DNA from: an uncultured Gammaproteobacteria bacterium
GTDB lineage: Bacteria; Pseudomonadota; Gammaproteobacteria; UBA9214
Length of the DNA: 64,000 bases
Assembly: GCA_963773065.1 (NCBI GenBank)
Contig: CAVYZN010000016.1
Span: 32,001 to 96,000 of the forward strand
Direction of reading: 5' to 3'
Below are positions 32,380 through 54,405 of this stretch, piece by piece (position 1 is the stretch's first letter; the number at the start of each line of letters is the position of its first letter). The notes under the pieces were generated by a model. The model was given only the letters and a program-made list of their open reading frames with translations. It made no database searches and had not been told where the DNA came from. The translations under genes and the position numbers were made by a program.

Positions 32380-33339
32380 GCTGGCGGTTGAGGACACGGC
32401 GGCGTTTGAGCGGGCGGCGGTGCTGGCCGAGGAAAACACGGCGCGTCTCAGGGTCATCGAGGTGCTTGAGGAAGTCTCGCCCGATATCGGAGTGCCGGTT
32501 CCGGTGCTGTTGACACAGGCCCTGCGCAATACCCTGATCGAGGAAAGCCGTGAGCAGATGGAGGAACTCGTCGCGCCGCTGCGGGAGAGAATCGATATCA
32601 GCATCGAGGTGCTCACCGGAACGTCTTTCCTGGAAATCATCCGCGAGGTCCTGCGCAACCGCCATGACCTGGTCATCAAGGCGGCCGACAAGGGCGGCCT
32701 GATTACCCGGATCTTCGGCAGTACCGACATGCACCTGCTGCGCAAATGTCCCTGCCCGGTGTGGCTGCACAAACACGGTCCGAACAAACCCTACCATCGC
32801 ATACTGGCGGCCGTGGATTTCGATGAATTCAGCGGCACGGAACAGGGAAAGCACGATCAACCGGGATATCATGGATCTGGCCGCCTCGCTGGCGCAGCGT
32901 GAACACAGCGAGTTGTATATCGGGCATGCCTGGTCTCCCAAGAGTGCGGAGCTGCTGCAAACCCGGCCAAGCGGACTGACGGAAGAGGAAATCAATGACT
33001 ACATCAACGAGACCCAGGCTTGCAACGAACGCCGGCTGAACGAGTTGATGGGCCGGGCGGAGGCCTGGGCGGGCGAAGATATCTGGCGCGAGGTCAAACC
33101 GCAAACCCGCCTGGTCAAGGGTCTGGCGCGCCGGGCGATTCCGGATCTGGCCGAGGAGCTGCAGGCGGAGCTTATCGTGATGGGAACGCTCGGGCAGTGC
33201 CGGCATCGCGGGTATTCTCATCGGCAACACGGCGGAAACCATACTCAACCGCATCGACTGTTCGGTGCTGGCAATCAAGCCGGAGGGATTTGTCACCCCG
33301 GTGACGCTACAGGAATCCGTAGCTTATGACAATGCGTGA
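32345..33339 (+). CDS. tandem-domain universal stress protein (UspE-like), frameshifted
   Basis: FKNIL, FGSTDMHLLRKCPCPVW, ILAAVD, IVMGT..GNTAE..CSVLAIKP. Confidence 0.88.
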
Positions 33340-33673
33340 CGATTCCTGCAATCCCTCACTATCATCCGGTTATGTGAAGGTCGCTCAGCGCGGCGATATT
33401 CCGCCCGGTAAGATGGCCTGCGTGCGCGTCAACGGCCGGCGCATCCTGCTCGCCAACGTGGAGGGCAGCATCTACGCCGCCGACGACACCTGCACCCACG
33501 AGGAGGCCTCGCTCTCGAAGGGCTTTCTCAAGGGCGAGTGGGTCAAATGCCCGCTCCACGGCAGCCGCTTCAATCTGCGCACCGGCGAGGTGGTGGACGA
33601 TCCAGCGGACGAGAACCTGCGCGTCTATCCCGTGCGCCTCGACGGCGACGATATTTTAATAGCCTTGAACTGA
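33326..33673 (+). CDS. Rieske [2Fe-2S] ferredoxin
   Basis: CTH..CPLHGSRF. Confidence 0.9.
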   Translation: MTMRDDSCNPSLSSGYVKVAQRGDIPPGKMACVRVNGRRILLANVEGSIYAADDTCTHEEASLSKGFLKGEWVKCPLHGSRFNLRTGEVVDDPADENLRVYPVRLDGDDILIALN

Positions 33674-33683
33674 TCCGCGTCCC

Positions 33684-34814
33684 ATGAGCACAGCCGCCCC
33701 CGTCATGCCATCCGATCCTGCGACCACGATGCGCTCGATCATCAAGCGCATCGCCACCGGCCCGGAGCTGAGCAAGGACATTTCCTTCGACGAGGCGCGC
33801 GAAGGCATGCGCATCGTGCTCGACGGCGCGGTGGACCCGGTGCAGGCGGCGCTGTTCCTGATCGCGTTGCGCATGAAGCGCGAAACCGACGACGAGAACC
33901 GCGGCGTGCTCGCCGCGATCCGCGACGCGACGCGCACCGTCACCGCCGAAGTGGACGACGTGCTCGATCTCGCCGACCCCTACGACGGCTTCAATCGCAC
34001 GCTGCCGCCCGCGCCGTTCCTGCCGGCCGTGCTCGCGGCCTGCGGCGTACCTTGTATCTCGCATGGCGTCGAGCGCATGGGACCGAAGTTCGGCGTCACG
34101 CATCGCCAGATCCTGCGCGCCGCCGGGATAGCCGTGGATCTCGCGGTCGAGGACGCCGCCGCGCGCCTAGCCGACCCGCGCATCGGCTGGGCCTACGTGG
34201 ACCAACGGCACTTCTGCCCCAAGCTGCACCAGCTCGCCGACTTCCGCACGCTGATCGTCAAGCGCCCGGCGATCACGACCGCCGAGGTGCTGGCGGGCCC
34301 GGTCCGCGGGCGGCGCCGCACTCACATCGTGACCGGCTTCGTACACAAGCCCTACCCGCGCATCTACGCGCTGCTCGCGCGCCACGCCGGTTTCGATTCG
34401 GCGCTCATCGTGCGCGGCGTCGAGGGCGGCGTGATCCCGTCGCTGCGCCAGAGCGGGAAGGCATTCTTCTATCACGACGGCGGCGAGGAACGCGCGCTCG
34501 ATTTCGCGCCGGCCGATTTCGGCATCGAACAGTCGCTGCGCGCGCCGCCCTTGCCGCCCGGGCTTTCCCCCGACGAGGACGAAGCAGTAGCCGCCGCGCT
34601 CGACACCGAGGCCATCGCGAAGGCGGCGGCCTCGGCGGGTCTTGAAGCGCTCGAAGGATCGCCGGGCGCGACGCGCGACTGCCTGGTGAGCGCCGCGGCG
34701 CTCTGTCTCTGGCACCTCAAACGATTCGAGTCGCTGCGCACCGCCGCCGATGCGGTGCGCGCCGTGCTCGACAGCGGCGCGGCGCTGGCGCGTTTCACCC
34801 GCGCCCAGGCATAA
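33684..34814 (+). CDS. TrpD/YbiB-like glycosyltransferase family 3 protein
   Basis: FLIALRMKRET..E; SHG..PK.GVT; VHKPY; RGVEG. Confidence 0.8.
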   Translation: MSTAAPVMPSDPATTMRSIIKRIATGPELSKDISFDEAREGMRIVLDGAVDPVQAALFLIALRMKRETDDENRGVLAAIRDATRTVTAEVDDVLDLADPYDGFNRTLPPAPFLPAVLAACGVPCISHGVERMGPKFGVTHRQILRAAGIAVDLAVEDAAARLADPRIGWAYVDQRHFCPKLHQLADFRTLIVKRPAITTAEVLAGPVRGRRRTHIVTGFVHKPYPRIYALLARHAGFDSALIVRGVEGGVIPSLRQSGKAFFYHDGGEERALDFAPADFGIEQSLRAPPLPPGLSPDEDEAVAAALDTEAIAKAAASAGLEALEGSPGATRDCLVSAAALCLWHLKRFESLRTAADAVRAVLDSGAALARFTRAQA

Positions 34815-34842
34815 CCCCGCCGGCCTGGCCCGCCAGCGCTAA

Positions 34843-35860
34843 TTACCCGGTCATCCGGTATTGCGCCGGTGATTTCCCGGTCCAGCGCTTGAAGGCGCGG
34901 GTGAAATTGCTGGGTTCCGAGAAACCCAGCAAATAGGTGATCTCGCCGATGCTGCGCCGGGTATCCCGCAGGTACTGCAGTGCGAGTTGCTGGCGGGTGT
35001 CCTCCAGCAGATCCTTGAAACTGGTGTCTTCATCTTTCAGCCGGCGCTGCAGGCTGCGCAGGCTGACGTGCAGCGTGTCGGCAATCGCCTCCTGCTTCGG
35101 GATGCCGTCCGGGAGCTGGTGGATGATCTTCGAGCGTACCTGCATGGCGATGCTGTCCCGGTCAAAGCGGGCCAGGTAATCCACGACGACCTGGTCGTTG
35201 ATCCGCGCGAGTTCCGGATTGGCCGATGCGAGATGACGGGTGAGCAGTTGCCGGTCGAAGCACAGCCGGTTGTCGGGCGCCCCATAGTCGATGGAGGCGC
35301 CGAACATCTCTTCAAACTGCGCGCGACAGGGCGGCAGCGGGTCGCTGCAATGTGACATGCCGGGGCAGGATGGGATGGCCTGCCGTGATCTGACACATGC
35401 GCAGAAAGGCCGCCATGCCCAGGTCTGCTGCCGCGTACTCGAAGTCAGGCGGGAGTATCTCCGGCAGCACGGTGACCAGGTCGATGGAATCCGGCTGTTC
35501 TTCCAGGCGGAAATGGAGGGCGCTGTTGATCAGGCGCGCATAGCGCACCAGACGGCCAAACGCATCCAGCAGGGTGTCACTGACCAGCCAGGCAAGACCC
35601 AGCCCGTGCAGCATGGCGGGCTGGAACTGGCGTGCGGCGACCAGTCCCAGGCAGGGGTCGCCGGTGGCCGCGACGGCGAGCTTCCACAGTTTCTGCATCC
35701 GCGGCATGGGAAAGCGCGCATTGGGGTCGGTGGCCCTGCCCAAATCGATGCCCGCCGCGACAAACAACGGCTCCGGATCACAGCCGCAGGCGCGCAGGGT
35801 CGTGGCGATGAGCCCCGCTACGCTGCCCAGCGTGGTGATTTCCGGTATCGAGTACGCCAT
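34843..35860 (-). CDS. AraC-family transcriptional regulator, frameshift near 35350
   Basis: SLRSLQRRL..LGFSEPSNFTRAFKRWTG.SP; N-terminal TGDPCLGL domain. Confidence 0.9.
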
Positions 35861-35983
35861 GGCTTGCAGTTTGGTCCCGGCGGATAAGGCAATGGCACCC
35901 AGTGATTAACCAAGCCTAGCAGGATCCGGCTAAGGTGGTAGTCCTGAAGGGGGGTTGTTCCGCCTGTAAACCACCAACCGGGA

Positions 35984-36577
35984 GTGCTGTATGGGAATCA
36001 CGGTAAAGATCCAGATCTACATCTGGCGGCATTGCCGATCGAATACCTGGCCCGGCAGGATGGCCTGCTGGAGCGGATACGCGCCGATGAGCGTGCGTTC
36101 AACCCCTACCGGGAGGTCTTCATCACGGGTATGCGGGCCTACCAGCAGCATACCTATCTCGAACTGGTGCGGCGGACCTACGGCCGCGCCGTGGCGCACC
36201 AGGTCGAAGTACACCAGCGCCACATGCTGGATTTCATGACGGGCATGGGACGACGCATCGAGCAGGCTCTGGACCTGATCGAAGGGGCGCTCGACACCCG
36301 GGCAGTCAGCGCCGCCACGCGCCACGGCGAGATCGAGATACCGATTGAAATGAATGTGGCGCTGGCCCTGCTGCTGGGGCTGGAGGAATCACCGGATTAT
36401 GTCGCGACGGCGGCGCGGCGTGCCGAGCAGATCACCCGCATGCAACCGGAAATCGACTGGCGCCTGGCGCATGGCCTGGCGCGCGCCCGGGAGGAGATGG
36501 TGAAGACATTCTCGCCGGTGCTGGTCTGTCTTGACGGCGTCGCCGGGAAAAGAACCGGCATCAGCCTCTCCGGATGA
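35984..36577 (+). CDS. hypothetical protein
   Basis: 197-aa ORF with host-like codon usage and GGAG upstream. Confidence 0.6.
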   Translation: MLYGNHGKDPDLHLAALPIEYLARQDGLLERIRADERAFNPYREVFITGMRAYQQHTYLELVRRTYGRAVAHQVEVHQRHMLDFMTGMGRRIEQALDLIEGALDTRAVSAATRHGEIEIPIEMNVALALLLGLEESPDYVATAARRAEQITRMQPEIDWRLAHGLARAREEMVKTFSPVLVCLDGVAGKRTGISLSG

Positions 36578-36637
36578 GTGGCGTATCTCAGTCACCGATG
36601 AGGGTTTGCGCAGGAAATTTTCTCGACCGGTTTCCCC

Positions 36638-36778
36638 ATGCTTAAATTGATCGGTAGTATTTTGCTTGTTTATTACCTCATCCTGGGGGTGGCTGCGCTC
36701 ATTTTCCTGGCATGGGGCTACATCGACGATCACAGGCAAGCGAAACGGCGCAAGCGCGAAACCCGGATCCGGAACTGA
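36638..36778 (+). CDS. putative 46-aa single-TM protein (below the ORF-track cutoff)
   Basis: [46 protein letters not shown]. Confidence 0.45.
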
Positions 36779-36969
36779 TCACGCACGCGCGGCCCGCACC
36801 GGGGGCGAGAAGGCGATCTGAACCGCCGCAAGAAGCAAAACAGGCCGGTCGCCCGCCGGATAACGTCGTAGGTTCAAGCACGACAAATGATGCGCCCGGT
36901 CCGGCGCGCTGCCGCATGCCAAGGCCCGGTATTTTCGCTACACTAGGGCGCCTGAATCCGGATCCGTCC

Positions 36970-39225
36970 ATGCCAGCCGCCGCCATTCCCGCCGTCCGCA
37001 CCGCCCTGTTCGACTACCCGAAGTACTGGGCCGAGTGCTTTGGCAGCGCCCCGTTTCTGCCCATGAGCCGCGCGGAGATGGATGCCCTGGGCTGGGATTC
37101 CTGCGACATCATCCTCGTCACGGGCGATGCCTACGTCGATCACCCCTCCTTCGGCATGGCCATCATCGGGCGGCTGCTGGAGGCCCAGGGTTTCCGCGTC
37201 GGCATCATCGCCCAGCCGGACTGGCAGTCGAAAGCGGCGTTCGAGGCGCTCGGCCGGCCGAACCTCTTCTTCGGCGTCACCGCCGGCAACATGGATTCCA
37301 TGATCAACCGCTATACCGCGGACCGCAAACCCCGTTCCGACGACGCCTACACCCCCGGCGGGCGGGCGGGCAGTCGCCCGGACCGCTGCTCGCTGGTCGT
37401 ATGCGCAACGCTGCCGGGAGGCGTACCCGGACGTGCCGCTGGTGCTGGGCGGCATCGAGGCCTCGCTGCGGCGCATCGCCCATTACGATTACTGGCAGGA
37501 CAAGGTGCGCCGTTCGCTGCTGGTGGACGCCGGCGCCGACATCCTGCTCTACGGCAATGCCGAGCGGGCCGTGGTGGAACTGGCCCACCGCCTCGCCCGC
37601 GGCGAGGCCATCGCCGACATCACCGACGTGCGCGGCACCGCCTTCATCCGCCGCGACACCCCCGCGGACTGGTGGGAAGTCGATTCCACCCGCATCGACC
37701 GCCCGGGCAGGATCGACGGCGTCATCAACCCCTATATCAACACCCAGGCGATGGATGCCTGCGAACGGGAACGGCGCAACAGCGCCCGCTACGGCTTCGG
37801 CTTCGACGCAGCACGGCGCGCCGCTGATCCCGGCGCCCCAACCGCGACTGGATCGCGCGCGCACCGTGATTCGCCTGCCGTCATTCGAGAAGGTGCGCAA
37901 CGACGCCGTGCTCTACGCCCACGCCAGCCGGGTGCTGCACCTGGAAACCAATCCCGGCAATGCCCGGGCGCTGGTGCAGCAACACGGCGCGGTCGATGTC
38001 TGGCTGAACCCGCCGCCGATTCCGCTCACGACCGAAGAAATGGACTACGTGTTCGGCATGCCGTTCGCGCGCGTGCCCCACCCCCGCTACCGGGGCGAGA
38101 ACATCCCGGCCTGGGAGATGATCCGCTTCTCGGTCAATATCATGCGCGGCTGCTTCGGCGGCTGCACCTTCTGCTCCATCACCGAGCACGAGGGCCGCAT
38201 CATCCAGAACCGTTCGCAGGAGTCGATCCTGCGGGAAATCGAGGACATCCGCGACAAGGTGCCGGGCTTCACCGGCGTCATCTCGGACCTCGGCGGTCCC
38301 ACCGCCAACATGTACCGCATCGCCTGCAAAAGCCGCGACATCGAGGCCGCCTGCCGCAAGCCGAGCTGCGTCTATCCGGGCATCTGCCCGAACCTCGACA
38401 CCGATCATTCCGCGCTCACGCGGCTCTACCGGGAGGCCCGCACGTCTGCCGGGCATTAAAAAGGTCCTGATCGCCTCCGGGCTGCGCTACGACCTGGCGG
38501 TGCGCGACCCGGAGTACGTGAAGGAGCTGGTCACCCACCACGTCGGCGGTTACCTGAAAATCGCGCCGGAACATACCGAGGAAGGTCCGCTGTCGATGAT
38601 GATGAAGCCGGGGGTCGGCGCCTACGATGCCTTCAAGCGGCTGTTCGAGAAATTTTCCGCGGAAGCCGGCAAGGAGCAGTACCTGATCCCGTATTTCATC
38701 GCCGCCCATCCGGGCACCAGCGATGAGGACATGGTGAACCTGGCGCTCTGGCTGAAGCGCAACGGCTTCCGGGCCGACCAGGTGCAGGCGTTCTACCCCT
38801 CGCCGATGGCCACCGCCACGGCCATGTATCACTCGGGCAAGAATCCCCTGCGCCGGGTGCGCTACAAGAGCGAGGGGGTGGATGTCGTCAAGGATGCCGG
38901 GCGGCGCCGGCTGCACAAGGCGTTCCTGCGCTACCACGATCCGCGGCACTGGCCGCTGCTGCGCGAGGCGCTCCTGGCGATGGGACGGGCGGACCTGATC
39001 GGCGGCGGCCCCCACCAGCTCATCCCGCACGAACAGCCGGACGAAGGCAAGGACTACCGGGCGCCGCGCCGCAAGAACTCCGCGCAGGCGCATCAACGGC
39101 GCCTCGAGGGAACGCTGCTGACCCGGCATACCGGTCTGCCGCCCTGGCAGGAGGGCAGCCGTAAAGCCGGTCAAGAGGGGACGGGGAAACGCAGGCGCAA
39201 GCCGTCGGTCGAACGACCGCGCTGA
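36970..39225 (+). CDS. ygiQ: YgiQ-family radical SAM protein, several frameshifts
   Basis: [59 protein letters not shown]. Confidence 0.92.
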
Positions 39226-44558: not shown

Positions 44559-44627
44559 CTGTAGGTGCGAATTTATTCGCATATACTGACCCATGAGTTA
44601 ACCGTGCGAATAAATTCGCACCTACAG
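44559..44627. repeat. GTAG-type REP doublet (REPIN-like)
   Basis: ctgtaggtgcgaatttattcgca (44559-44581) and its exact reverse complement (44605-44627). Confidence 0.85.
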
Positions 44628-44643: not shown

Positions 44644-44714
44644 GAAAAGGGGTCGAAGCTCTATTATTGCCATTTCTGTATTCCGACTCCAAGAAAAGGG
44701 CATTTACCCCTTTT
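44644..44714. repeat. degenerate AAAAGGGGTC-family palindrome doublet
   Basis: gaaaaggggtcgaagctctatt and gaaaagggcatttacccctttt. Confidence 0.6.
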
Positions 44715-44733: not shown

Positions 44734-47700
44734 ATGCTGCACATCTGCCGTTCCAATCGCGTCGAGTCACTGCTAGAGCGCCTGGCGGACCGGCTCGGCG
44801 AGGAGCCGCTTTCCTCGCCTTTCCTGCCCGAGGTGGTGGTGACGCCGAGCCCCGCTATGGCGCGCTGGGTCAATCTGCAACTCGCCGGCCGGCACGGGGT
44901 GGCGGCCAATTACCGCTATCCGCTGCCGGCCGCGTTCATCTGGCAGCTCGCGCGCGATCTGCTCGGCGATCTGCCCGATACCGACCCGCTCGCGAGCGAT
45001 GTCATGACCTGGAAGGTCTACGCGCTGCTGCCTGAACTGATTGAGGAGCCGGCCTTTGAATCCATCGCTCACTACCTGCAGCAGGATGCCGGTGGCCTGA
45101 AGCGTTTCCAGCTCGCCGGCCGGATCGCGGACGTCTTCGACCGTTACCAGTTCTACCGGCCGCAGCTGTTGCGTGACTGGGGTGCCGGCAAGGACGGACA
45201 GTGGCAGGCGGTGTTGTGGCGCCGGTTGACCCGCGGGATCACCCAGCACCGCCTCGCCGTCATCGCGCGCCTGCTGTCGCGCCTCCAGAAAAGAAGGGAA
45301 AAGGGGTCAGAGCCCTTTTCTGAACAGAGTGGCCTGACTGGTAATTTTATTTCGCCTGAAGAAAAGGGGTCTGACCCCTTTTTGCCGGAGCGCGTCAGCC
45401 TGTTCGCCATCTCCAGTCTGCCGCCGCTGTTCGTCGAGGTGCTGCACGCGCTCGCCGCGCATACCCGCATCGACCTCTACCTGCACAGTCCGACCGACCA
45501 GTTCTGGGCGGACCTGGTATCCCAGAAGACGCTGGCGCGCAAGCGTCTGGCTGAGCCCGAGGCCGCCGAGCTGTGGGAAACGGGTAACAGCCTGCTGGCC
45601 TCCTGGGGCCGCCAGGGGCAGGCCCTGCAGGATCTGTTGCTGATGCAGGAAACCCCGGCCACCGAGGAGGATGCCTTCAGCGCGCCCGAGACGGAGTCGC
45701 TGCTTGCGCATCTGCAGCGGGACATCTACACCCTGCGGCCCATGGCGGCCCCCGGCGAGCGGATGGCCGTCGAACCCGACGCTTCGCTGCAGGTGCATGT
45801 GTGTCACAGTCCGCAGCGGGAATGCCAGGTGCTGCACGATGGCCTGCTGGCGATGCTGGACGGCGACCCGGCACTGCGTCCCGAGGACATGCTGGTCATG
45901 GTGCCGGAGATCAGCCTCTATGCCCCCTACATCGAGGCCGTGTTCGAACAGGATGCGGAATCCGACCGGCCGTTCATTCCCTGGAACCTGTCGGATATCT
46001 CGCTGCGCGACGAGCATCCGCTGGTGCGGGTGTTCCTGCAGTTGCTGGACCTGCCGCACAGCCGTTTCAGCCACACGGAAATCCTGTCCTGCCTCGACGT
46101 GCCGGAGCTGGCCGGACGGTTCGGGCTGGACGGCGAGGCGCTGGCGCAGATCCGGGAATGGCTGGCAGAGGCCAGGCTGCGCTGGGGATTGAGCGGTGCG
46201 CACAAGCGGCAGTTCGGCCTGCCCGGCACGGAGGAGAACACCTGGGCGCAGGTCGAACGACGCCTGTTCGGCGGCTACGCCCTGGGCGAGGGCGAGCTGT
46301 TCGAAGACATCGCCCCGATTGCCGGCGTGGATGGCGCCCGGGGCGAAATCCTCGGCCGGTTCTGGCGGCTGCTGTCCTGTCTCATCGAGTATGCCGAGCG
46401 GCTGCGCCGCCCGCGCCGCGCCGGCGAGTGGCAGGAATGTCTGGGCCGCCTGCTCGATGATTTCTTCGGTGAACAGGAGGACGAGGAGGGCAGGATCCAG
46501 AAAATCCGCGATGCCCTGGCGGATCTGGCCGGACAGGCCGGCGGCCTGGACGAGACCCTGCCCGTTGCCCTGGTGCGTCACTGGCTGGAGCGGCAACTGG
46601 GCACGCAGACCCGTCACGGACGCTATTTCAGCGGCGGCGTGACCTTCTGCGGCATGCGCCCCATGCGCAGCCTGCCCTTCAAGGTGATCTGTGTGCTGGG
46701 ACTGCATGACCAGGCATTTCCGCGCCGCGAGCAGCCGGCCGAGTTCGACCTGATGCGCGAGCACTGGCGTCCCGGCGACCCGCGCAAGGGGGCCGAAGAC
46801 CGCTACCTGTTCCTGGAAACGCTGCTGTGCGCGCGGCAGGTCCTCTACCTCAGCTACGTCGGGCGCGACATCCGCAACAACAGCGAGCGCCAGCCCTCGG
46901 TGCTGCTGCGGGAACTGCTGGATTATATCGACCAGCAGTACGTGGATGCCGGTGGCGATGCCGGGGACCAGGCTCAGTGCGCGGCTGACGCGCGTGCATC
47001 CGCTGCAGCCCTTCAGTCGCGCGCAATTACCGCGGCGAGCCGCGCAGCTACGACGGCGACTGGTGTGCGGTGGCGCAGGCGATGCGGCAGCCGCTGCGGC
47101 CCGAACCGGCGGGCGCGGACTGGAACCGCACCCGGTTGCCCGCCGCCCCGGACACCCTGCGCACCGTCAGCCTCACGCAATTGCTGCGCTTCGTGCGCCA
47201 TCCGGTCAGGTACTTCGTGAATACGCGCCTGCAGGTCTACCTGCGGGAGGAGGCGCCGGGTGAAGATGACGAGGTGTTCAGCGCTGGATGCGCTGCAGAG
47301 CTTCAGCCTGAAACAGCGCCTGGTGGATGATTACCTCAAGGGACGGCCGACTCCCGCGCGGCAACTCAGTGCCGAGGGCATCCTGCCGCACGGGGCCTTC
47401 GCCGGTCTCGCCTGGCAGCAGGAGTCACTGAAAGTGCAGCCACTGACGCAGCGGCTCGCGGCCTACCGGGCGCACCCGCCGGAGCAACGGCTGGTCGACC
47501 TGCCATTCGAGAACGAGGCCGCGGGATCGCTCCGACTCGCGGGGCAGATCAAGGGCATTTACCCGGGGCCCGGTCTGCTGCGCTACCGGCCGGGTGCCCT
47601 CAAGGGGCCGGACATCCTGGCGCTGTGGCTGGAACACCTGGCCTGGTGCGCCGGTGATGGCGGCCGGCGACAAATGCAGCACCCTGCACGGGACGACCGG

Positions 47701-48044
47701 GCAGTTCACCCTCACGCAGAGCCTTGACCCGGCCGAGGCGCGGGCGCACCTCGCCCGCTACCTGCAGTGGTACCGGGAGGGGCTGCACCGGCCGCTGCCG
47801 TTGCTGCCCGGCGCGAGCCATGCGTGGATGCGCGCGAGTCAGGGCGGCCGGGCCGACCCGCTCAACGCCGCGCTCGCCGCCTGGAACGGCAACGAATTCA
47901 CCGGTATCCCCGGCGACAAGGACGATGCCTATATCGAACTGGTGATGCGCGGCGTCGCGGGGAACCCGATCGACCAGCCGGAGTTCGCGGAACTGGCGGC
48001 AGGCGTTCTACGCCGACGCGCTGGCCGCAGGAGAGCTGTCATGA
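44734..48044 (+). CDS. recC: exodeoxyribonuclease V gamma subunit, several frameshifts
   Basis: SNRVESL, DVFDRYQFYRP, LLASWG..G, HVCHSPQRE, PMRSLPFKVICVLG, DRYLFLE. Confidence 0.95.
45298..45382. repeat. palindromic REP-like doublet inside the recC reading frame
   Basis: gaaaaggggtcagagcccttttc and gaaaaggggtctgacccctttt are inverted copies differing at one base. Confidence 0.85.
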
Positions 48045-51000
48045 GTTTCCAGATGCTCGATCCGCCGGCGGTACTCGCATTCCCCCTGACCGGCATGCGG
48101 CTGATCGAGGCGAGCGCCGGGACCGGCAAGACCTACACCATCGCCAATCTCTACCTGCGCCATATCGTGGAAGGGCGCGATGTCGCCGAGGTGCTGGTGG
48201 TGACTTTCACGGTGGCCGCCACCGATGAGCTGCGCGGGCGCATCCGCGCGCGCCTGTTCGAGACCCTGGCACTGCTGGAACACGAGGCGGACACGGACGA
48301 CAGTTTCCTGGCCGGACTGGCCGTCCGGCTCAAGGAACAGGGCCTCGCGGAACAAACCGTCAAGCGCCTGCGGCTCGCGGTGCGCGCCATGGACGAGGCC
48401 GCTATCTACACCATCCACGGCTTCTGCCAGCGCACCCTGAGCGAATTCGCCTTCAACAGCGGCCAGCAGTTTCAGCTTGAGGTGCTGGCCGACGACGGCG
48501 ATTTGTGGCGCCGGGCCATTCAGGACTGGTGGCGCAAGACCGGTTATCCTCTTGATGCGGTGCAGGCCCGCCTGTTCCGCGACAGCCTGGGAGACCTCGA
48601 CGCGTTCGAGGCGCTGGTCAAGCCGCTGCTCGGTGTGCAGCACAAGCGGTTGCTGCCCGAGGTGGAAAACTGGGATCAGTTGCTCACCCGCTGGGATGCG
48701 CTCGCCGTCGAGCTGGATGCACTGGCCGACCACTGGCGAGGGGATGGCGCCTCGCTGCAGCAGATATTGCGCGAATCGAAGGGGCTCAGCCGTGCCCAGT
48801 CAAGTCCCTATCAGTCGGACCGGATCGATCAGGCGCTTGCCCTCCTCGACGACTACTTCGCCGAGGCGGAACGCATGCCGCCGCCGGATGCCTTCGAAGT
48901 GCTGACGCCGCAGTGCCTGCGGCGGTTTGCGTTGAAGAAGGCCGATCCGGCGCTCGAGCGAGGGTTTTTCCTGCGCTGCGGTGAGGTATGGGGAAGGTCT
49001 GCGCGCGCTGAAACGCGACCTGCGCGCCGCCGCCCTGACAGAAGCCGCGGCCTTCGCGCGCGAGCAGGTCAGGCAGGCCAAATTCACGGCCCAGGTGCTC
49101 TCCTACGACGATTTGCTCGCCGAGATGTACCGGGCGCTGCAGAGCGGCAACGGCGCGGCTCTGGCGGAGTCGGTGTGCACGCGTTTTCCGGTGGCGATGA
49201 TCGACGAGTTTCAGGATACCGACCCGGTGCAGTACGGCATCTTCCGCGAACTCTACCGCGGCCGGCTGGACTGCGGCCTGATCCTGATCGGCGACCCCAA
49301 GCAGGCCATCTACAGTTTCCGCGGCGGCGATATCTTCACCTACATGCAGGCCAAGCAGGACGTGGGCGCGGACAGCGTCTACACCCTGAACATCAACTGG
49401 CGCTCGACGCCGGAGGTGCTGAACGCAGTTAACGCCTTCTTCAGGCAGCGTGAGAGGGATGCCTTCGTTTATGGAGAAACCATTCCGTTTATCGGCACCC
49501 ACGCGGCGGACAAGTCGCATCGCTATCTGCAAAGGGACGGTGAGCGGCAAGCCGCGCTGCAACTCTGGTTGCTGCCCGAGGGCCGCAACGCGAAAGGCGA
49601 GGCGAAACCGCTCTCGAAAGAGGAGGCGAGCGGGCTGAGCCATGACGCCGTGGCGCAGGAGATCACGCGGCTCATCGCCGAGGGCAGAGCCGGGACGGCG
49701 CGGCTCGGCGACCGGGCGCTCTGTCCCCGCGATATCGCGGTGCTGGTGCGTACCTCCTTACGAGGCCTCGGGTCTGCGCCGGGTGCTCTCGGAACATGGC
49801 GTCAATGCCGTCTCCGTCGGGCGCGAGGGCGTGTTCAATACCCCGGAGGCGGCGGCTCTGGAGGTGCTGCTCCAGGCCGTGCTCGCCCCGCGCGAGCGGG
49901 AACTCGCGCGCCTGGCGCTGACCTCCGCGCTGCTCGCCCTGGACTACGCGCAGATCGAGCGCATCCTCCAGAGCGAAGCGCAGTGGGTGGACTGGGTGGA
50001 TCAATTGCGGCTGTTGCACCAGGTCTGGCAGCGCAAGGGATTCATGTCGATGTTCCAGCAGATGCTGCGTCGCCTGGGTATCGCCGAGGCGCTCGGCCGG
50101 GGCGAACAGGCCGAGCGCCGCCTGACCAATCTGCTGCATCTGGGCGAGTTGCTGCAGCAGGCTTCCAAGGCTCACCCGGGCATGGACGCGTTGCTGGGAT
50201 GGTATCGGGAGCAGCGCGACCGCGGCGCGGCGGAAGAATCCGAACTGCGTCTGGAAAGCGATGAGGAGCTGGTGCAGATCGTCACCATCCATGCCAGCAA
50301 GGGGCTGGAGTATCCGGTGGTCTTCGTACCCTACCTGTGGGGCTGCAAACCGCGCGCACTGAACGGCTTGCTGGGGTTTCACCGCGGCAACGAGGCGTGT
50401 CTGGATGCCGGGTCCGACGCCATCGAGGAGCATCTCCTCCTCGCCGAGCAGGAACGCCTGGCCGAGGACGTGCGCCTGGCCTATGTGGCGCTGACCCGCG
50501 CGGAGGCCGCCCTCTATCTGGTGTGGGGGCGGGCCGGATCCAGAGACGGTTCCGCCGGCCAGACCGCGCTGGCCTGGCTGCTGCACCCGCACCAGGCGCG
50601 GGAACGGCTGGCCGCGGAGCGCCCGGACGCGTTTGCCGGCCTGGCGGACCTGGAGCCGGACCTGCACCGGCTGGCGGAGCGGGCGCGGGGCGACATCGTC
50701 GTTACCCCGCTGCCGCAGTCCGTGGCGGAGACCGTGGCGCCGCCGGCCGGAGAAGCCGGAAGCGCTGGCGCCCCGGCGCTTCACCGGTCACATCGCCACC
50801 GACTGGCGGATCAACAGCTTTTCCGCCCTGACACGGGATGTCCATTCCGGTCCGGCGATTCCGCGTGCCGGCGCGGCGGATGACCCGGCGCTGCAATTTC
50901 CGGCGGGCAGCCATGTCGGCTCCTATCTCCACTTGCTGCTCGAATGCCTGGATTTCCGGGGCGATGTCGAACGGCAGGTGCTGCAGCACAGCGCGCAGGT

Positions 51001-51616
51001 GGCCGCGCGCTTCAACCTGGATCACGAACGCTGGGGCGCGAGCGCGGCCGAGTGGCTGGCGCGGGTGATCGCCACGCCGCTCGATGCGCAGGGGTTGCGG
51101 CTGGCGCAACTGCCGCCGCAGGCGCGGCTCAACGAACTGGAGTTCGATTTCTCCACGCAGCGGGTCGACATCCCTTCCCTGAATGCCTTACTGGAACAGG
51201 CGGCCGGTCGGCCTCTGCCGCCGCTCGAGGTCGCGACCTTCCGGGGCATGGTCACCGGCATCATCGACCTGGTGTTCGAGTACGAGGGCCGGTTCTACAT
51301 CGCCGACTACAAGAGCAACTTCCTCGGCGGGCAGTTCGGCGACTACGAACGGCCCGGGCTCGAGCGGGCCGTGTACGAACGCCGCTATGACCTGCAGTAC
51401 CTGCTCTACACCCTGGCGCTGCACCGCTACCTGCGCCAGCGCGTCGACGGCTACGACTATGCGCGCCATTTCGGCGGGATCCACTACCTGTTCCTGCGCG
51501 GCATGCGGCCGGAAAGCGGGGCGGCGTGCGGGGTGTACTTCGTCCGGCCCGACCCGGCGCTGGTGGAGGCGCTGGACCGGCAAATATTCCACCCTGATGA
51601 GGCGGTAGCGACATGA
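48041..51616 (+). CDS. recB: exodeoxyribonuclease V beta subunit, several frameshifts
   Basis: IEASAGTGKT, TIHGFC, IDEFQDTD, GDPKQAIYSFRG, TIHASKGLEY, YVALTRA, IDLVF..DYKSN, YDLQY. Confidence 0.95.
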
Positions 51617-53440
51617 GCGACGTGTTGCGGCGCCTGATGGACACCGGCGGTCTCCCGCCGCTGGCGTATTACTTCGCCCGCTTCGTGGCGCGCGGCTGCG
51701 GGGTGGATGAGGACGGTCTGCTGGCCCGGAGCGCCGCCCTGGTCAGCCTGCGCAACCTGCAGGGCGACGTCTGCGTGGACCTCGCGCAGTATGCGGGCCG
51801 ACCCCTGTTCGGGGATGACGACGAGGCATCGCGCGAGCTTCCCCGTGCACCGGCGCTCGGCGAGTGGCTGGAGGCGCTGGCCGCTGCGACCTGGGTGGGT
51901 CGGCCCGGCATCAGCGCGCCGCTCATCCTGGATAACCACCGCCTCTACCTCGGCAAGTACTGGCAGTACGAACAGACAGTGGCCGAGGCCCTGCGGGAGC
52001 GTCTGGAATCCGTGGCGGCGCTGGACGCGGCGCGGCTGGCCGATGGCCTGCGGCGGCTGTTCAGGGATGCGCAGGATGGCGCGACAGATTGGCAGAAGGT
52101 CGCGGCGGCGATCGCGGTCAGCCGCCGTTTTGCCGTGATTTCGGGCGGACCGGGTACCGGCAAGACCACCACCGTGGTGAAGGTGCTGGCGCTGCTGTTG
52201 GAGCAGGACCCGAGACTGCACATCGCCCTGGCGGCGCCCACCGGCAAGGCGGCGGCGCGTCTCACGGAAGCCATCCGCGGCGGCAAGGGCTGCGTCGACG
52301 CCGCGGCTGGAGTGCTGGCCGGCATACCGGAGGAGGCGAGCACGCTGCACCGGTTGCTCGGCGCCGGGTTCGGCAGCGGCTTCCGCCACAACCGGGACAA
52401 CCCGCTGGTGCTCGACTGCCTGGTGGTGGACGAGGCCTCGATGATCGACCTGCCGCTAATGGCCCGTCTGCTCGAGGCCCTGCCGGCGCAGACCCGCCTC
52501 ATCCTGCTCGGCGACCGCGACCAACTGGCCTCGGTCGAGGCGGGCAACGTGCTCGGTGATATCACCGGTCATGGCCAGGAGATCCGTTACAGCCGGCCGC
52601 AAATCGATTTCCTGGAAGCTCTCGGCGTGGCGCCCGGCGGGGTGCTGCCGAGAGCGTCGCAGTCGCCGCGCGTCGCCGATGCGGTGGGACTGCTGCGGGT
52701 CAGCTACCGTTTTGCCGCGGACAGCGGCATCAGCGAGTTGGCGCGCCGGGTCAATGCCGGGGAGGGGGAGGCAGCGCTGCGGCTGTTCGGGGATGATCGC
52801 TACCGCGATATCGCCTGGCTCGACGCGCGGGAGGGTGGCCTCAATCCCGCCTGCATGGACTGGGCGGTGGATCGCTATGCCCGTTATCTGCAGGAGGACG
52901 ATGTGGCCGCCGCGCTTCGGTCCTTCGAGCAGACGCGGGTGCTGGCCGCGCTGCAGGGCGGAGCCTTCGGCGTCGAGGAAATCAACCGGCGCATCGCCGA
53001 GCGGCTGCAGGCGCGTGGGCTGATCCAAGGCGGCGAGGAATACCACGGCAAACCCGTCATGGTGACGACCAACGACTACGAAGTGGGCCTGTTCAACGGC
53101 GACATCGGCCTGTTATGGCGCGCCGCGGACGATACCCTGCGCGCCTGGTTTGCCTTCACGGCAAACGAGCCGCGCAGTGTTTCCATCCGCCAGTTGCCCG
53201 AACACGTCTGTGCCTACGCCCTGACGGTGCACAAGAGCCAGGGTTCCGAGTTCGACGAGGTGCTGCTGGTGTTACCCGCAACGGAAAGCCGGGTGCTGAC
53301 CCGTGAGCTGGTTTACACCGGTGTTACCCGGGCGAGACGCCGGGTAACCATCCAGGGCGAGCGGCAGACCTTCCTGCAAGGCTGCCAGCATCGCGTGCTG
53401 CGGGCCTCCGCCCTGTCGGAGAAGCTCGGCTGGGGCAGGG
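51613..53440 (+). CDS. recD: exodeoxyribonuclease V alpha subunit (3' end approximate)
   Basis: GGPGTGKTT, APTGKAA, TLHRLLG, VDEASM, GDRDQL, TVHKSQGSEF, YTGVTRA. Confidence 0.95.
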
Positions 53441-53541
53441 AGCAGAGGAAACATCATCAGGCCACCCTCAATAATCCTGAACAAATCCCGATTTTTCGAG
53501 GTTCCCATGCGTTGGGAGGCATGGACGCGTGTCGGGTGCGG

Positions 53542-54405
53542 CTACCCCCGCTGCTTGAAAATCCAGACTTCATTCAGGCGGAGTGTTTCCTTGACCTCTT
53601 CGGCATGGGTTTGCGCTTCTTTTGCCGTCGCAAAGCCGGTGAGCTGTACGCGCCAGAACATCCGGCCTTTCACCTCGGCTTGGTTCTGCTCCACGGGGAC
53701 GCCGCGGTCGCGTGCGCTGGCCGCGAACCGTCCCGCCACCGCCTTGTTCGGGTCGGACAGCAAATTGATCACCCAAGGGCCCTTCTTGCCGCTCCCCTGC
53801 GCAAGAACCGCGTCGGTTGCGAGGGCGGTGGTAATCGGGATTGCTGGTTCTCCTTTGCGTGCCTCGACCGGTGTCTCCTTCACGGAATCCTGCGCCGCCG
53901 CGGTGTCACCCGCTGCCCCGCTGACCATGGTCACAGGTTGCGACTCGACGGGTGTGGACGCCGCCGCGGGTGTTTCCGCAAGCGCTCTCCTCACTCTGCC
54001 GGTGGCTTCCGTAGATTCGGGCGCGACATCGGCAGGCGACCGCGCAATGCCTGCCGCGGGCGCCTCGGAAGGGATGTCCACTTCCGTGATTGCCGTCGTC
54101 CCTTCCTCTGCTGCCCAGGCCGCGACGGTAGCCTGCCGCTGCTGCGAGGTGACCGAGGCGAGTTTGGCGTCGAGACCGGAAAATGCCTCGGTCAGCGCCC
54201 GTACGCGCGCATTCAGTGAGGTATATTTTCCCTCGAGCAGGCTGGCGGGAAAGGCCCAGGTCTTTACCTCGACCAACTCGCTTTCCAGTGCACTCAGCCG
54301 CTTGTTGATGTCGAAAATATAGAGATTGACGCCAACGGTAAGACAGATAACGACGATCAGGGAAAACAGCTCCAGATATTTCAATATGCGATTATTAATG
54401 GCCAA
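53542..54405 (-). CDS. membrane-anchored SPOR-domain protein
   Basis: N-terminal TM, Ala/Pro/Glu linker, WVINL.S..WRVQLTGF.T..EA. Confidence 0.8.
   Translation of the reverse strand: MAINNRILKYLELFSLIVVICLTVGVNLYIFDINKRLSALESELVEVKTWAFPASLLEGKYTSLNARVRALTEAFSGLDAKLASVTSQQRQATVAAWAAEEGTTAITEVDIPSEAPAAGIARSPADVAPESTEATGRVRRALAETPAAASTPVESQPVTMVSGAAGDTAAAQDSVKETPVEARKGEPAIPITTALATDAVLAQGSGKKGPWVINLLSDPNKAVAGRFAASARDRGVPVEQNQAEVKGRMFWRVQLTGFATAKEAQTHAEEVKETLRLNEVWIFKQRG

What the first reader, a model, noticed from the sequence alone, without database searches (positions are those of the whole stretch)
45288..45383. Palindromic REP-like element inserted in frame inside recC
Seen: RecC reads ...LLSRLQ-KRREKGSEPFSEQSGLTGNFISPEEKGSDPF-LPERVSLF. 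KGSEPF and KGSDPF are translations of two inverted copies of the palindrome gaaaaggggtctgacccctttt, which flank an AT-rich spacer in a GC-rich gene. A degenerate doublet of the same family lies in non-coding DNA just upstream (44644-44714). Knowledge: E. coli RecC has only a short linker before LPSRV, and Rickettsia palindromic elements are the precedent for repeats becoming protein sequence. Inference: a mobile repeat has added about 25-30 residues to a surface loop of a core DNA-repair protein while keeping the frame.
Basis: partly seen in the sequence, partly recalled or inferred. Interest (0 to 1): 0.7.

Follow-up and report, generated by a model that had tools for sequence, protein, structure and literature searches.

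The report
Mobile palindrome pair inside recC gene
A small selfish DNA palindrome pair (a REPIN) sits in frame in a flexible loop of the DNA-repair protein RecC and adds 24 amino acids, which is a real and nicely documented example of something already described for other repair genes.

Summary
Two inverted 21-nt palindromes (45299-45319 and 45362-45382) flank a 42-nt spacer inside recC and are read in frame.

- **Absent from relatives.** Same-genus genomes G002 and G003 lack the insert and are exactly 72 nt (24 codons) shorter.
- **Not an artefact.** A contig from an unrelated metagenome run spans the insert without a gap.
- **What it is.** It is a REP doublet (REPIN) of a low-copy family. 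An IS200-like Y1 transposase (RAYT) gene on contig C17 is flanked by inverted copies of the same repeat.
- **A polymorphic site.** The same RecC loop carries other in-frame versions (+42, +48, +54 nt) in related metagenome contigs. It is enlarged in 10 of the 19 closest RecC clusters, but in only 1 of 88 readable distant ones.
- **A second copy.** Another copy lies in frame in the linker of a double UvrA.
- **recC is not a pseudogene.** Its five frameshifts are best read as assembly errors, because rpoB is split too.
- **Novelty.** REP dimers inside uvrA and recB/recD are in print (Di Nocera 2013). This is a new member of a known kind.

The parts
44734..48044 (+). recC (exodeoxyribonuclease V gamma). 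It is read in one frame up to about 46968, followed by five single-base insertions relative to G002 at 46969, 47019, 47282, 47665 and 48000.
   Evidence: TIGR01450 scores 735 bits against a cut-off of 582.9 on residues 1-732. Pfam Exonuc_V_gamma also matches. tblastn with the G002 RecC gives pieces in successive frames, and the DNA alignment places the breaks. The model matches E. coli RecC with TM 0.84-0.87.
45286..45384 (+). Variable loop segment of recC: 99 nt (33 codons) here, against 27 nt (9 codons) in G002, G003, L016, L019, L021 and L022. Net gain is 72 nt.
   Evidence: Codon-by-codon comparison; BLAST alignment.
45299..45319 (+). Left REP arm, read as (E)KGSEPF.
45320..45361 (+). 42-nt spacer (45% G+C). 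It forms the loop of the long hairpin and is read as SEQSGLTGNFISPE.
   Evidence: It shows no significant similarity to 8 other spacers (p >= 0.117).
45362..45382 (+). Right REP arm, a perfect palindrome, read as (E)KGSDPF.
44644..44714 (.). Degenerate REP-like pair in the non-coding DNA 20 nt upstream of the recC start.
   Evidence: D1, I4. One search gives 44694-44714 with 3 mismatches. G002 has a decayed counterpart at the same place (printout).

Best explanation
The feature is an 84-bp REPIN: two inverted REP arms of 21 nt plus a 42-nt spacer. As a single strand it folds into one long hairpin.

It belongs to a low-copy REP family with core AAAAGGGG-(T/A)C-N-G(A/T)-CCCCTTTT. The cognate enzyme is an IS200-like Y1 transposase (RAYT) encoded elsewhere in the genome, on contig C17, and flanked by the same repeat.

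The element lies in the loop between the helix that carries the Chi-contact arginine equivalent (R173 here, R186 in E. coli) and the next beta-strand of RecC domain 1. It replaces a 9-residue loop with 33 residues.

It is tolerated for three reasons:
- The REP arms carry no stop codon in the frames seen in use.
- The whole element is open in the frame used.
- The loop is a flexible excursion outside the folded core.

recC stays under purifying selection.

The site has a history of more than one event. Related lineages carry an empty site, a scar, short-loop REPINs in both loop orientations, or this long-spacer REPIN. All of these are in frame.

**Shown:** presence, family membership, RAYT association, absence in relatives, in-frame allelic series, and predicted disorder.

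**Inferred:** that RAYT moved the element by single-strand transposition, that the peptide is made, and that it is neutral or nearly so.
For: **Structure and family**
- Arms and frame.
- 0 matches expected by chance.
- Long hairpin: DNA -25.1 kcal/mol (z -5.8) and RNA -48.3 kcal/mol (z -6.2), with 0 of 200 shuffles as good.
- Genome census: 14 hits at <=3 mismatches against 0 in the reversed-genome control, and 26 against 1 at <=4.
- All 5 of 5 A2G4-N5-C4T2 hairpins in the genome carry family loops.
- The family occurs in 13 of 18 other genomes of the same family, at 1-11 copies per strand in the genomes that have it, with control 0.
- In the doublets of relatives the right arm is the reverse complement of the left, whatever the variant.

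**RAYT**
- The C17 ORF 85844-86572 matches Pfam Y1_Tnp at 41 bits against a cut-off of 23.
- It is flanked by inverted REPs at C17:85770-85790 and 86534-86554.
- A homologue in Clostridium sp. CAG:452 is flanked by the exact 21-mer, and a homologue in an alphaproteobacterial MAG has 7 copies within about 1 kb. That is 2 of 5 genomes examined.

**Insertion**
- G002 and G003 are 72 nt shorter.
- A 213-nt contig in run X1 spans 45247-45459 with 0 gaps and 10 mismatches.
- L017, L018 and L020 carry +48, +42 and +54 nt versions at the same codons.
- Contigs in X3 and X5 are 42-46 nt shorter across the site.
- Loop length exceeds 22 residues in 10 of the 19 closest clusters, and in 1 of 88 readable distant ones; 13 of the 101 distant clusters were unreadable by my pattern.

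**Gene alive**
- dN/dS is 0.17 over 708 codons against G002.

**Protein model**
- AF2 model has pLDDT 86.1. It shows helix 173-189, pLDDT below 50 for residues 194-212, and strand 220-224.
- Its best PDB matches are RecC chains.
Against: - **Copy number** is far below classical REPINs: 9 copies at <=2 mismatches.
- **Not clearly extragenic in this genome.** Two of the four clean doublets here are intragenic, so 'extragenic' is not met in G000.
- **RAYT match is partial.** It scores below the NCBIfam equivalog cut-off for REP-associated tyrosine transposase (64.9 bits against 80). It has no sequence match in the PDB. Its nearest homologues in same-genus genomes are only 47-55% identical.
- **REP variants differ.** The RAYT-flanking variant (GTCAGTAC core) is not the variant found in recC.
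- **No sign of recent copying.** The recC spacer resembles no other spacer, so there is no evidence of recent copy-and-paste.
- **No direct evidence** of transposition, of transcription or of the peptide.
- **Assembly quality.** The assembly carries many single-base errors. The exact base count of the insert therefore rests on the X1 contig, which has a depth of only 2.3.
Confidence: 0.8

Rival explanations
1. Hot-spot reading. The loop is a preferred landing or exchange site. Successive REPINs of different sub-variants inserted there independently, or replaced a resident copy by homing or conversion, rather than one old insertion simply drifting.
For: - Three REP sub-variants occupy the same codons: GTCAGAG/GTCTGAC in G000, GACAGAC with AAAC/GTTT ends in L017, and GTCAGTAC in L018 and L020.
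- The 7-nt loop is CTGGAAG in L017 and L020 but its reverse complement in L018.
- A flank tree does not group the element-bearing alleles, and holding them together is rejected (p-AU 0.0057; tree).
- The empty alleles of G003 and L016 share a homologous native loop, so the ancestor was empty.
- The double-UvrA linker shows the same pattern with two different REP families. G002 also keeps the first nine bases of the other family's arm.
Against: - The clade for the AU test was named after the tree was seen.
- Recombination between close lineages could move one old allele about.
- G000, L017 and L018 share a local haplotype (VI[AT]RLLS), and L020 and G002 share another (LLFRL), which fits allele exchange.
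- No common target sequence is visible at the junctions of four copies.
Confidence: 0.4
2. The insert has been co-opted. Either the peptide changes RecBCD behaviour, for instance near the Chi-recognition groove, or the -48 kcal/mol mRNA hairpin tunes recC expression.
For: - The insert starts 13 residues after the equivalent of E. coli R186, a Chi-recognition residue in a groove at the 1A/1B interface (passages of PMC4614115).
- Enlarged loops persist in 10 of the 19 closest clusters.
- Di Nocera et al. argue that REPs in repair genes are unlikely to be fortuitous (passages).
Against: - Sequence, length, reading frame and loop orientation of the insert all vary between alleles.
- Close relatives do without it.
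- The region is predicted to be disordered.
- No terminator-like site lies on the sense strand.
Confidence: 0.08
3. recC is a decaying pseudogene, and the insert is just one more lesion that happens to be in frame.
For: - There are five +1 frame breaks in the last third of recC, and more in recB.
- With this query, RecC was not found in 0 of 14 genomes of the other genera of the family, so the system is dispensable there.
Against: - The same kind of isolated single-base insertion occurs in other genes of the window.
- The essential rpoB of this assembly is split over three frames, while G002's is whole.
- All five breaks are single-base insertions.
- dN/dS is 0.17.
- Relatives with insert alleles have full-length RecC of 1088-1100 aa.
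Confidence: 0.05
4. The palindromes are not transposase-moved elements. They are hairpin motifs, for example terminator-like, that arise and spread by template switching or gene conversion, and the link to the transposase is incidental.
For: - The exact 21-mer occurs in many phyla, with about 1600 stored stretches estimated.
- Spacers of paralogous copies are mostly unrelated.
- G002 has a half-arm in a loop of native length.
Against: - Y1 transposase genes flanked by inverted copies were found in three unrelated genomes.
- Homologues in the family all carry inverted repeats with the GGGGTCAGA-type core.
- Within G000 there are no A/G4-N5-C4/T hairpins with other loops.
- The sense-strand terminator scan is negative.
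Confidence: 0.07

Closest known systems
Intragenic REP dimers in DNA-repair genes (Di Nocera, De Gregorio, Rocco 2013, BMC Genomics 14:522, PMC3733652). I read passages and rows of supplementary file 3.
   Same: - REP dimers encode 20-30 residues in frame.
- They are found in uvrA (including an 1889-aa UvrA of Thioalkalivibrio with two dimers), recB and recD.
- Different REPs are reported at about the same site of recB in two Xanthomonas species.
- The authors suggest the inserts sit in linkers or loops.
   Different: - Their families are defined by a GTAG or CGTC tag at one end. The arms here have neither.
- No recC row is in their list: 'recc' has 0 occurrences in text and supplements, and the 4 exodeoxyribonuclease V rows are alpha or beta subunits.
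- They give no allelic series across close relatives.
REPIN-RAYT systems (Bertels and Rainey 2011, PLoS Genet 7:e1002132, PMC3116915). I read passages.
   Same: - Two REPs sit as an inverted pair with a spacer and fold into a hairpin.
- Start-to-start spacing is 63 nt here, against 71 bp for their GI doublet.
- The REP is found beside a RAYT gene.
- The family is inherited vertically and shared across a bacterial family.
   Different: - There are 1-11 copies per genome, instead of tens to hundreds.
- Half of the clean doublets in this genome are inside genes.
- Spacers are not conserved between most paralogous copies.
- The REP core is identical in distant phyla.
Rickettsia palindromic elements (RPE). 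Described in passages of the review PMC10969869. The original Ogata et al. papers are recalled, not read.
   Same: Palindromic mobile repeats inserted in frame in unrelated genes and compatible with the fold of the host protein.
   Different: RPEs are about 100-150 bp, specific to Rickettsia, and numerous in coding DNA. No sequence relation was tested here.

Membership tests
REP / REPIN | Short palindromic unit repeated in the genome above chance | tested here: met
   14 hits at <=3 mismatches against 0 in the reversed genome, and 26 against 1 at <=4. Window expectation is 0.00.
REP / REPIN | Two units in inverted orientation with a short spacer that fold into one hairpin | tested here: met
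   Arms are 96% complementary (I3). Fold z is -5.8 for DNA and -6.2 for RNA. The arms covary in the doublets of relatives.
REP / REPIN | A RAYT (Y1 transposase) gene flanked by the same repeat | tested here: met
   The C17:85844-86572 ORF is flanked by REPs at 85770-85790 and 86534-86554. The same arrangement occurs in Clostridium sp. CAG:452.
REP / REPIN | Predominantly extragenic location | tested here: inconclusive
   In G000, 2 of 4 clean doublets (recC and the double-UvrA linker) are inside genes. None of 10 loci taken from G001-G004 is spanned by a frame of at least 120 codons with third-position G+C above 0.79; recC's frame has 0.81.
REP / REPIN | High copy number (tens to hundreds) | tested here: not met
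   9 copies per strand at <=2 mismatches in G000, and 0-11 in 30 relatives.
GTAG/CGTC-tagged REP superfamilies (Di Nocera 2013) | GTAG or CGTC tetranucleotide at one end of the palindrome | tested here: not met
   The arms read AAAAGGGGTC.GACCCCTTTT and carry no such tag. A different family in the window, at 44559-44627, does start with GTAG.
RAYT (REP-associated tyrosine transposase) | Y1_Tnp domain over the curated threshold; equivalog model NF047646 | tested here: inconclusive
   Pfam PF01797 scores 41 bits against a cut-off of 23, so that is met. NF047646 scores 64.9 bits, below its cut-off of 80. An H-V-H and a later Y-I-E-L-N-P stretch are present in the translation. That these are the catalytic motifs is recalled, not tested.
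RecC (exodeoxyribonuclease V gamma) | Equivalog model and fold | tested here: met
   TIGR01450 scores 735 bits against 582.9. Foldseek best hits are RecC chains 8b1t_C and 1w36_C, with TM 0.84-0.87.
Mobile element (any) | Presence/absence polymorphism at an otherwise conserved site | tested here: met
   The site is empty in G003, L016, L019, L021 and L022, and occupied in G000, L017, L018 and L020. Actual transposition was not tested.
Rickettsia palindromic elements | Sequence membership in an RPE family | not tested
   No RPE sequence was fetched. The resemblance is by behaviour only.

The most novel reading that the evidence does not exclude
The RecC loop and the UvrA-UvrA linker may be re-used landing pads. 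Successive REPIN generations, even of different REP families, would home to or replace a resident copy. DNA-repair enzymes of this lineage would then carry a continually renewed, REPIN-encoded peptide.

On this reading the concentration of REPs in repair genes, noted in 2013, is not an accident of tolerance. It would reflect an interplay between RAYT/REPIN single-strand transposition and the RecBCD and UvrA machinery.

A linked point is that the same REP core with a flanking RAYT occurs in distant phyla, which would make this an unusually conserved and widely spread REP-RAYT pair.
Probability: 0.15. Interest if true: 0.65.

Novelty: new member of a known kind. Interest (0 to 1): 0.4.

Why it matters
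- **A natural allelic series.** The site runs from empty, through a scar, short REPINs in both loop orientations and a long REPIN, all in frame in a well-understood enzyme. This shows how a selfish palindrome becomes protein sequence and is later trimmed.
- **Independent support for a published pattern.** It adds to the published, little-followed observation that REP dimers turn up in DNA-repair genes.
- **Two clean test sites.** The RecC loop and the double-UvrA linker can be used to test whether that pattern reflects tolerance or targeting.
- **Annotation.** Such inserts should not be mistaken for native loops or for errors.

Tried and rejected
- **Pseudogene reading of recC.** Rejected, because isolated single-base insertions also hit other genes and rpoB, and dN/dS is 0.17.
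- **Assembly artefact.** Rejected on the gap-free X1 contig and on the related alleles.
- **Sequencing runs.** They held at most 0.21 of the sampled words, so they are relatives. Nothing is concluded from uncovered bins or from habitat labels.
- **Spacer homology.** The recC spacer against 8 other spacers gave no significant score (p >= 0.117).
- **RAYT against solved structures by sequence.** No match at E <= 0.01.
- **Sense-strand terminator.** None found. There is one weak site on the minus strand, no more than the shuffles give.
- **Weak REP-like hits inside other ORFs** (C26:57153, C18:13480, C33:24316, C11:28111). Pfam domain positions place them upstream of, or at the edge of, the domains, or they are 4-mismatch hits. 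They were not counted as intragenic.
- **Literature search for the 13-nt core.** 0 papers hold it.
- **Earlier findings of this scan by sequence.** Nothing found.
- Two of my own were corrected.
Full report
**1. Observation**

Two 21-nt palindromes sit in inverted orientation at 45299-45319 and 45362-45382. They are separated by 42 nt and lie inside the open frame that starts at 44734. A scan for the motif with up to three mismatches finds only these copies plus one degenerate copy upstream, against 0.00 expected in 100 shuffles. The element is 46% G+C in a gene of 68.5%. The frame is RecC: TIGR01450 scores 735 bits against a cut-off of 582.9 on residues 1-732. The upstream 'doublet' at 44644-44714 is real but decayed. 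One arm has 3 mismatches and the other keeps only half.

**2. It is an insertion, and it is real**

Two genomes of the same genus lack it. G002 has an intact RecC of 1078 aa. G002 and G003 are both exactly 72 nt shorter between the conserved codons for ...RL and PERV. E. coli RecC has a loop of the short length at this place.

A 213-nt contig from an unrelated public run (X1) lies on 45247-45459 with no gap and 10 mismatches. A related strain elsewhere therefore carries an insert of the same length. This contig has a depth of only 2.3.

**3. The assembly is error-prone, not the gene dead**

Against G002, recC carries five isolated single-base insertions, at 46969, 47019, 47282, 47665 and 48000. 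recB has several more. The same kind of lesion occurs in other genes of the window. The essential rpoB of this assembly is split over three frames, while G002's is whole. dN/dS between G000 and G002 over 708 recC codons is 0.17. I therefore read the frame breaks as assembly errors. Only accurate reads from the source can prove that.

**4. What the element is**

*Fold.* As a single strand the 96 nt fold into one long hairpin, arm against arm. The energy is -25.1 kcal/mol as DNA (z -5.8) and -48.3 as RNA (z -6.2), and 0 of 200 shuffles do as well.

*Family within the genome.* The genome holds a small family. There are 14 hits at <=3 mismatches to four arm variants, against 0 in the reversed genome, and 26 against 1 at <=4. 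All 5 of 5 hairpins of the form A2G4-N5-C4T2 carry family loops.

*Clean doublets.* These lie:
- between a tRNA gene and tuf (C8);
- at C11:329956;
- in recC;
- at C11:293733.

*Transposase.* On contig C17 a 243-codon ORF matches Pfam Y1_Tnp at 41 bits against a cut-off of 23. It is flanked by inverted copies of the repeat, 54 nt before its start and overlapping its last codons. This is the arrangement that defines REP-RAYT systems (passages of PMC3116915). Three cautions apply:
- The NCBIfam equivalog for REP-associated tyrosine transposase scores 64.9 bits, below its cut-off of 80.
- There is no sequence match in the PDB.
- The nearest homologues in relatives are 47-55% identical. Each is flanked by inverted repeats with a related core.

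*Family across relatives.* The repeat family occurs in 13 of 18 other genomes of the taxonomic family, at 1-11 copies per strand in those that have it. It occurs in 2 of 12 genomes of other families, and the control pattern gives 0 everywhere. Doublets come in a long form (spacers of about 37-42 nt) and a short form (loops of 7-10 nt). Whatever the arm variant, the right arm is the reverse complement of the left.

**5. The RecC loop is a polymorphic site**

Metagenome contigs encoding close relatives show the states below.

| State | Contigs or genomes | Detail |
|---|---|---|
| Empty, 9-residue loop | G003, L016, L019, L021, L022 | native loop |
| Native length with a half-arm | G002 | reads RKRGLPAGV |
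| Short-loop REPIN | L018, L017, L020 | +42, +48 and +54 nt |
| Long-spacer REPIN | G000 | +72 nt |

Further points on the allelic series:
- All lengths are multiples of three.
- The left arm is read as KRGQ(T/Y)PF in the short alleles but as EKGSEPF in G000, so the same arm is decoded in two frames.
- The 7-nt loop is CTGGAAG in L017 and L020 and its reverse complement in L018.
- Three arm sub-variants occupy the site.
- Contigs of runs X3 and X5 cross the site with 42-46 nt left out, which fits the short alleles.

Among 120 RecC clusters, the distance from the HR motif to PER is as follows.

| Group | Native length | Enlarged | Unreadable or mis-anchored |
|---|---|---|---|
| 19 closest clusters | 9 at 22 residues | 10 at 34-46 residues | 0 |
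| 101 more distant clusters | 86 at 20-26 residues | 1 at 37 residues, with an unrelated insert | 13 unreadable by my pattern, 1 mis-anchored |

A tree of the flanks does not group the occupied alleles, and forcing them together is rejected (p-AU 0.0057). I named the group after seeing the tree. The empty alleles of G003 and L016 share a homologous native loop, so the ancestor was empty. More than one event is needed: insertion, replacement, inversion, or exchange of alleles by recombination. I cannot tell which.

**6. Place in the protein**

By alignment to E. coli RecC, the insert lies about 13 residues after the equivalent of R186 and before the strand LPSRV.... R186 is one of the Chi-recognition residues and lies in a groove at the 1A/1B interface (passages of PMC4614115).

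An AlphaFold model built on 69 sequences has pLDDT 86.1 and pTM 0.84. It shows a confident helix at 173-189, no secondary structure at 190-219 with pLDDT below 50 at 194-212, and a confident strand at 220-224. The best structural matches are RecC chains, with TM 0.84-0.87. Exposure within the RecBCD complex was not tested.

**7. A second case in the same genome**

The doublet at C11:293733-293815 lies in frame in the linker between the two UvrA units of a double UvrA. The open frame is 1807 codons here and 1894-1941 in three relatives.

| Genome | What the linker holds |
|---|---|
| G000 | long REPIN |
| G004 | short REPIN of the same family |
| G001 | REPIN of a second REP family |
| G002 | REPIN of the second family, with nine bases of the first family's arm kept beside it |
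| G003 | a decayed, G+C-enriched remnant |

A partial copy also lies inside the first UvrA unit at C11:292730.

**8. What is known**

- **Di Nocera et al. 2013 (PMC3733652).** They report REPs inside genes, many of them in replication and repair genes, mostly as dimers encoding 20-30 residues. Their list includes an 1889-aa UvrA of Thioalkalivibrio with two dimers, recB of two Xanthomonas species and of Sulfurovum, and recD of Opitutus terrae. They note different REPs at about the same site of recB in two species (passages and supplementary file 3). RecC is not in their text or tables, and their families carry GTAG or CGTC tags that this one lacks.
- **RPEs of Rickettsia.** These are the older precedent (passages of PMC10969869).
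- **The 13-nt core of this repeat.** It is in no paper of the library searched.

The finding is therefore a new member of a known kind. The added value is an allelic series and a second site.

**9. Mechanism, with the steps marked**

*Shown:*
- A REPIN-type element of a RAYT-associated family is in frame in a RecC loop.
- It is absent from close relatives.
- The site is variably occupied, and always in frame.
- The gene is under purifying selection.
- The insert is predicted to be disordered.

*Inferred from knowledge of IS200/IS605-type Y1 transposases and REPINs:*
- The element moved as single-stranded DNA through the action of the RAYT in trans.
- Only in-frame, stop-free insertions in tolerant loops survive.
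- Later deletions trim them back, G002 being a candidate scar.

*Not shown:* transposition, transcription through the hairpin, the peptide itself, and any effect on RecBCD.

Noticed in passing
window 44559-44627: A perfect inverted pair (23-nt arms, 23-nt spacer) of a different, GTAG-tagged REP family lies upstream of recC. The genome has 14 copies at <=3 mismatches against 0 in the control, including three on C28 where another Y1 transposase homologue lies.
   Followed up: partly
window 46969, 47019, 47282, 47665, 48000 (recC); 49139-50751 (recB); 32844-38442 (other genes): Isolated single-base insertions or deletions relative to G002 break many reading frames. rpoB on C8 is in three frames as well. 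This looks like consensus error in the assembly.
   Followed up: partly
G000 contig C11:290335-295755 (locus L034): A double UvrA (two UvrA units in one frame) carries a REPIN in frame in the inter-unit linker and a partial copy in the first unit. Across five genomes of the genus the linker holds REPINs of two different families or a decayed remnant.
   Followed up: yes
loci L077-L205 (genome contigs); L216, L217: The exact 21-mer AAAAGGGGTC(A/T)GACCCCTTTT occurs in many phyla (129 stretches shown, about 1600 estimated), often as doublets 25-64 nt apart. In Clostridium sp. CAG:452 a Y1 transposase homologue (36% identity) is flanked by it. In an alphaproteobacterial MAG seven copies lie within about 1 kb of a homologue. 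No copy lies near the homologues found in Olsenella uli (1) or Desulfobotulus alkaliphilus (only 1 of its 3 matches checked), nor near a second homologue in the same Clostridium genome. No homologue was found in the Odyssella MAG.
   Followed up: partly
G000 contig C11:147764-148657 (locus L038): A second Y1 transposase homologue (C11:148003-148347) is flanked by inverted copies of a related repeat (AAAAGGGGACATTCTGG type). This is the family that occupies the UvrA linker in G001 and G002.
   Followed up: partly
protein P0119 (distant RecC, 1149 aa): It carries an unrelated 15-residue insert with a palindrome-like peptide (SESASAAVSASAV) at the same RecC loop.
   Followed up: no
window 51613-54219: The recD frame stays open for 868 codons, far past the expected end, and runs over an opposite-strand ORF at 53542-54405.
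   Followed up: no
relatives G005-G018: With the RecC query no match was found in any of 14 genomes of the other five genera of the family, against 3 of 4 in the window's genus. recBCD seems patchy in this family.
   Followed up: no
G000 C11:329956-330038; G003:C3, G003:C618, G002:C23: One long-spacer REPIN type has a conserved 37-nt spacer, shared by orthologous loci and by a paralogous copy with different arms in G003. The recC, uvrA and C8 spacers are not alike, apart from a weak similarity between the C8 spacer and that of G003:C618, p 0.001.
   Followed up: partly
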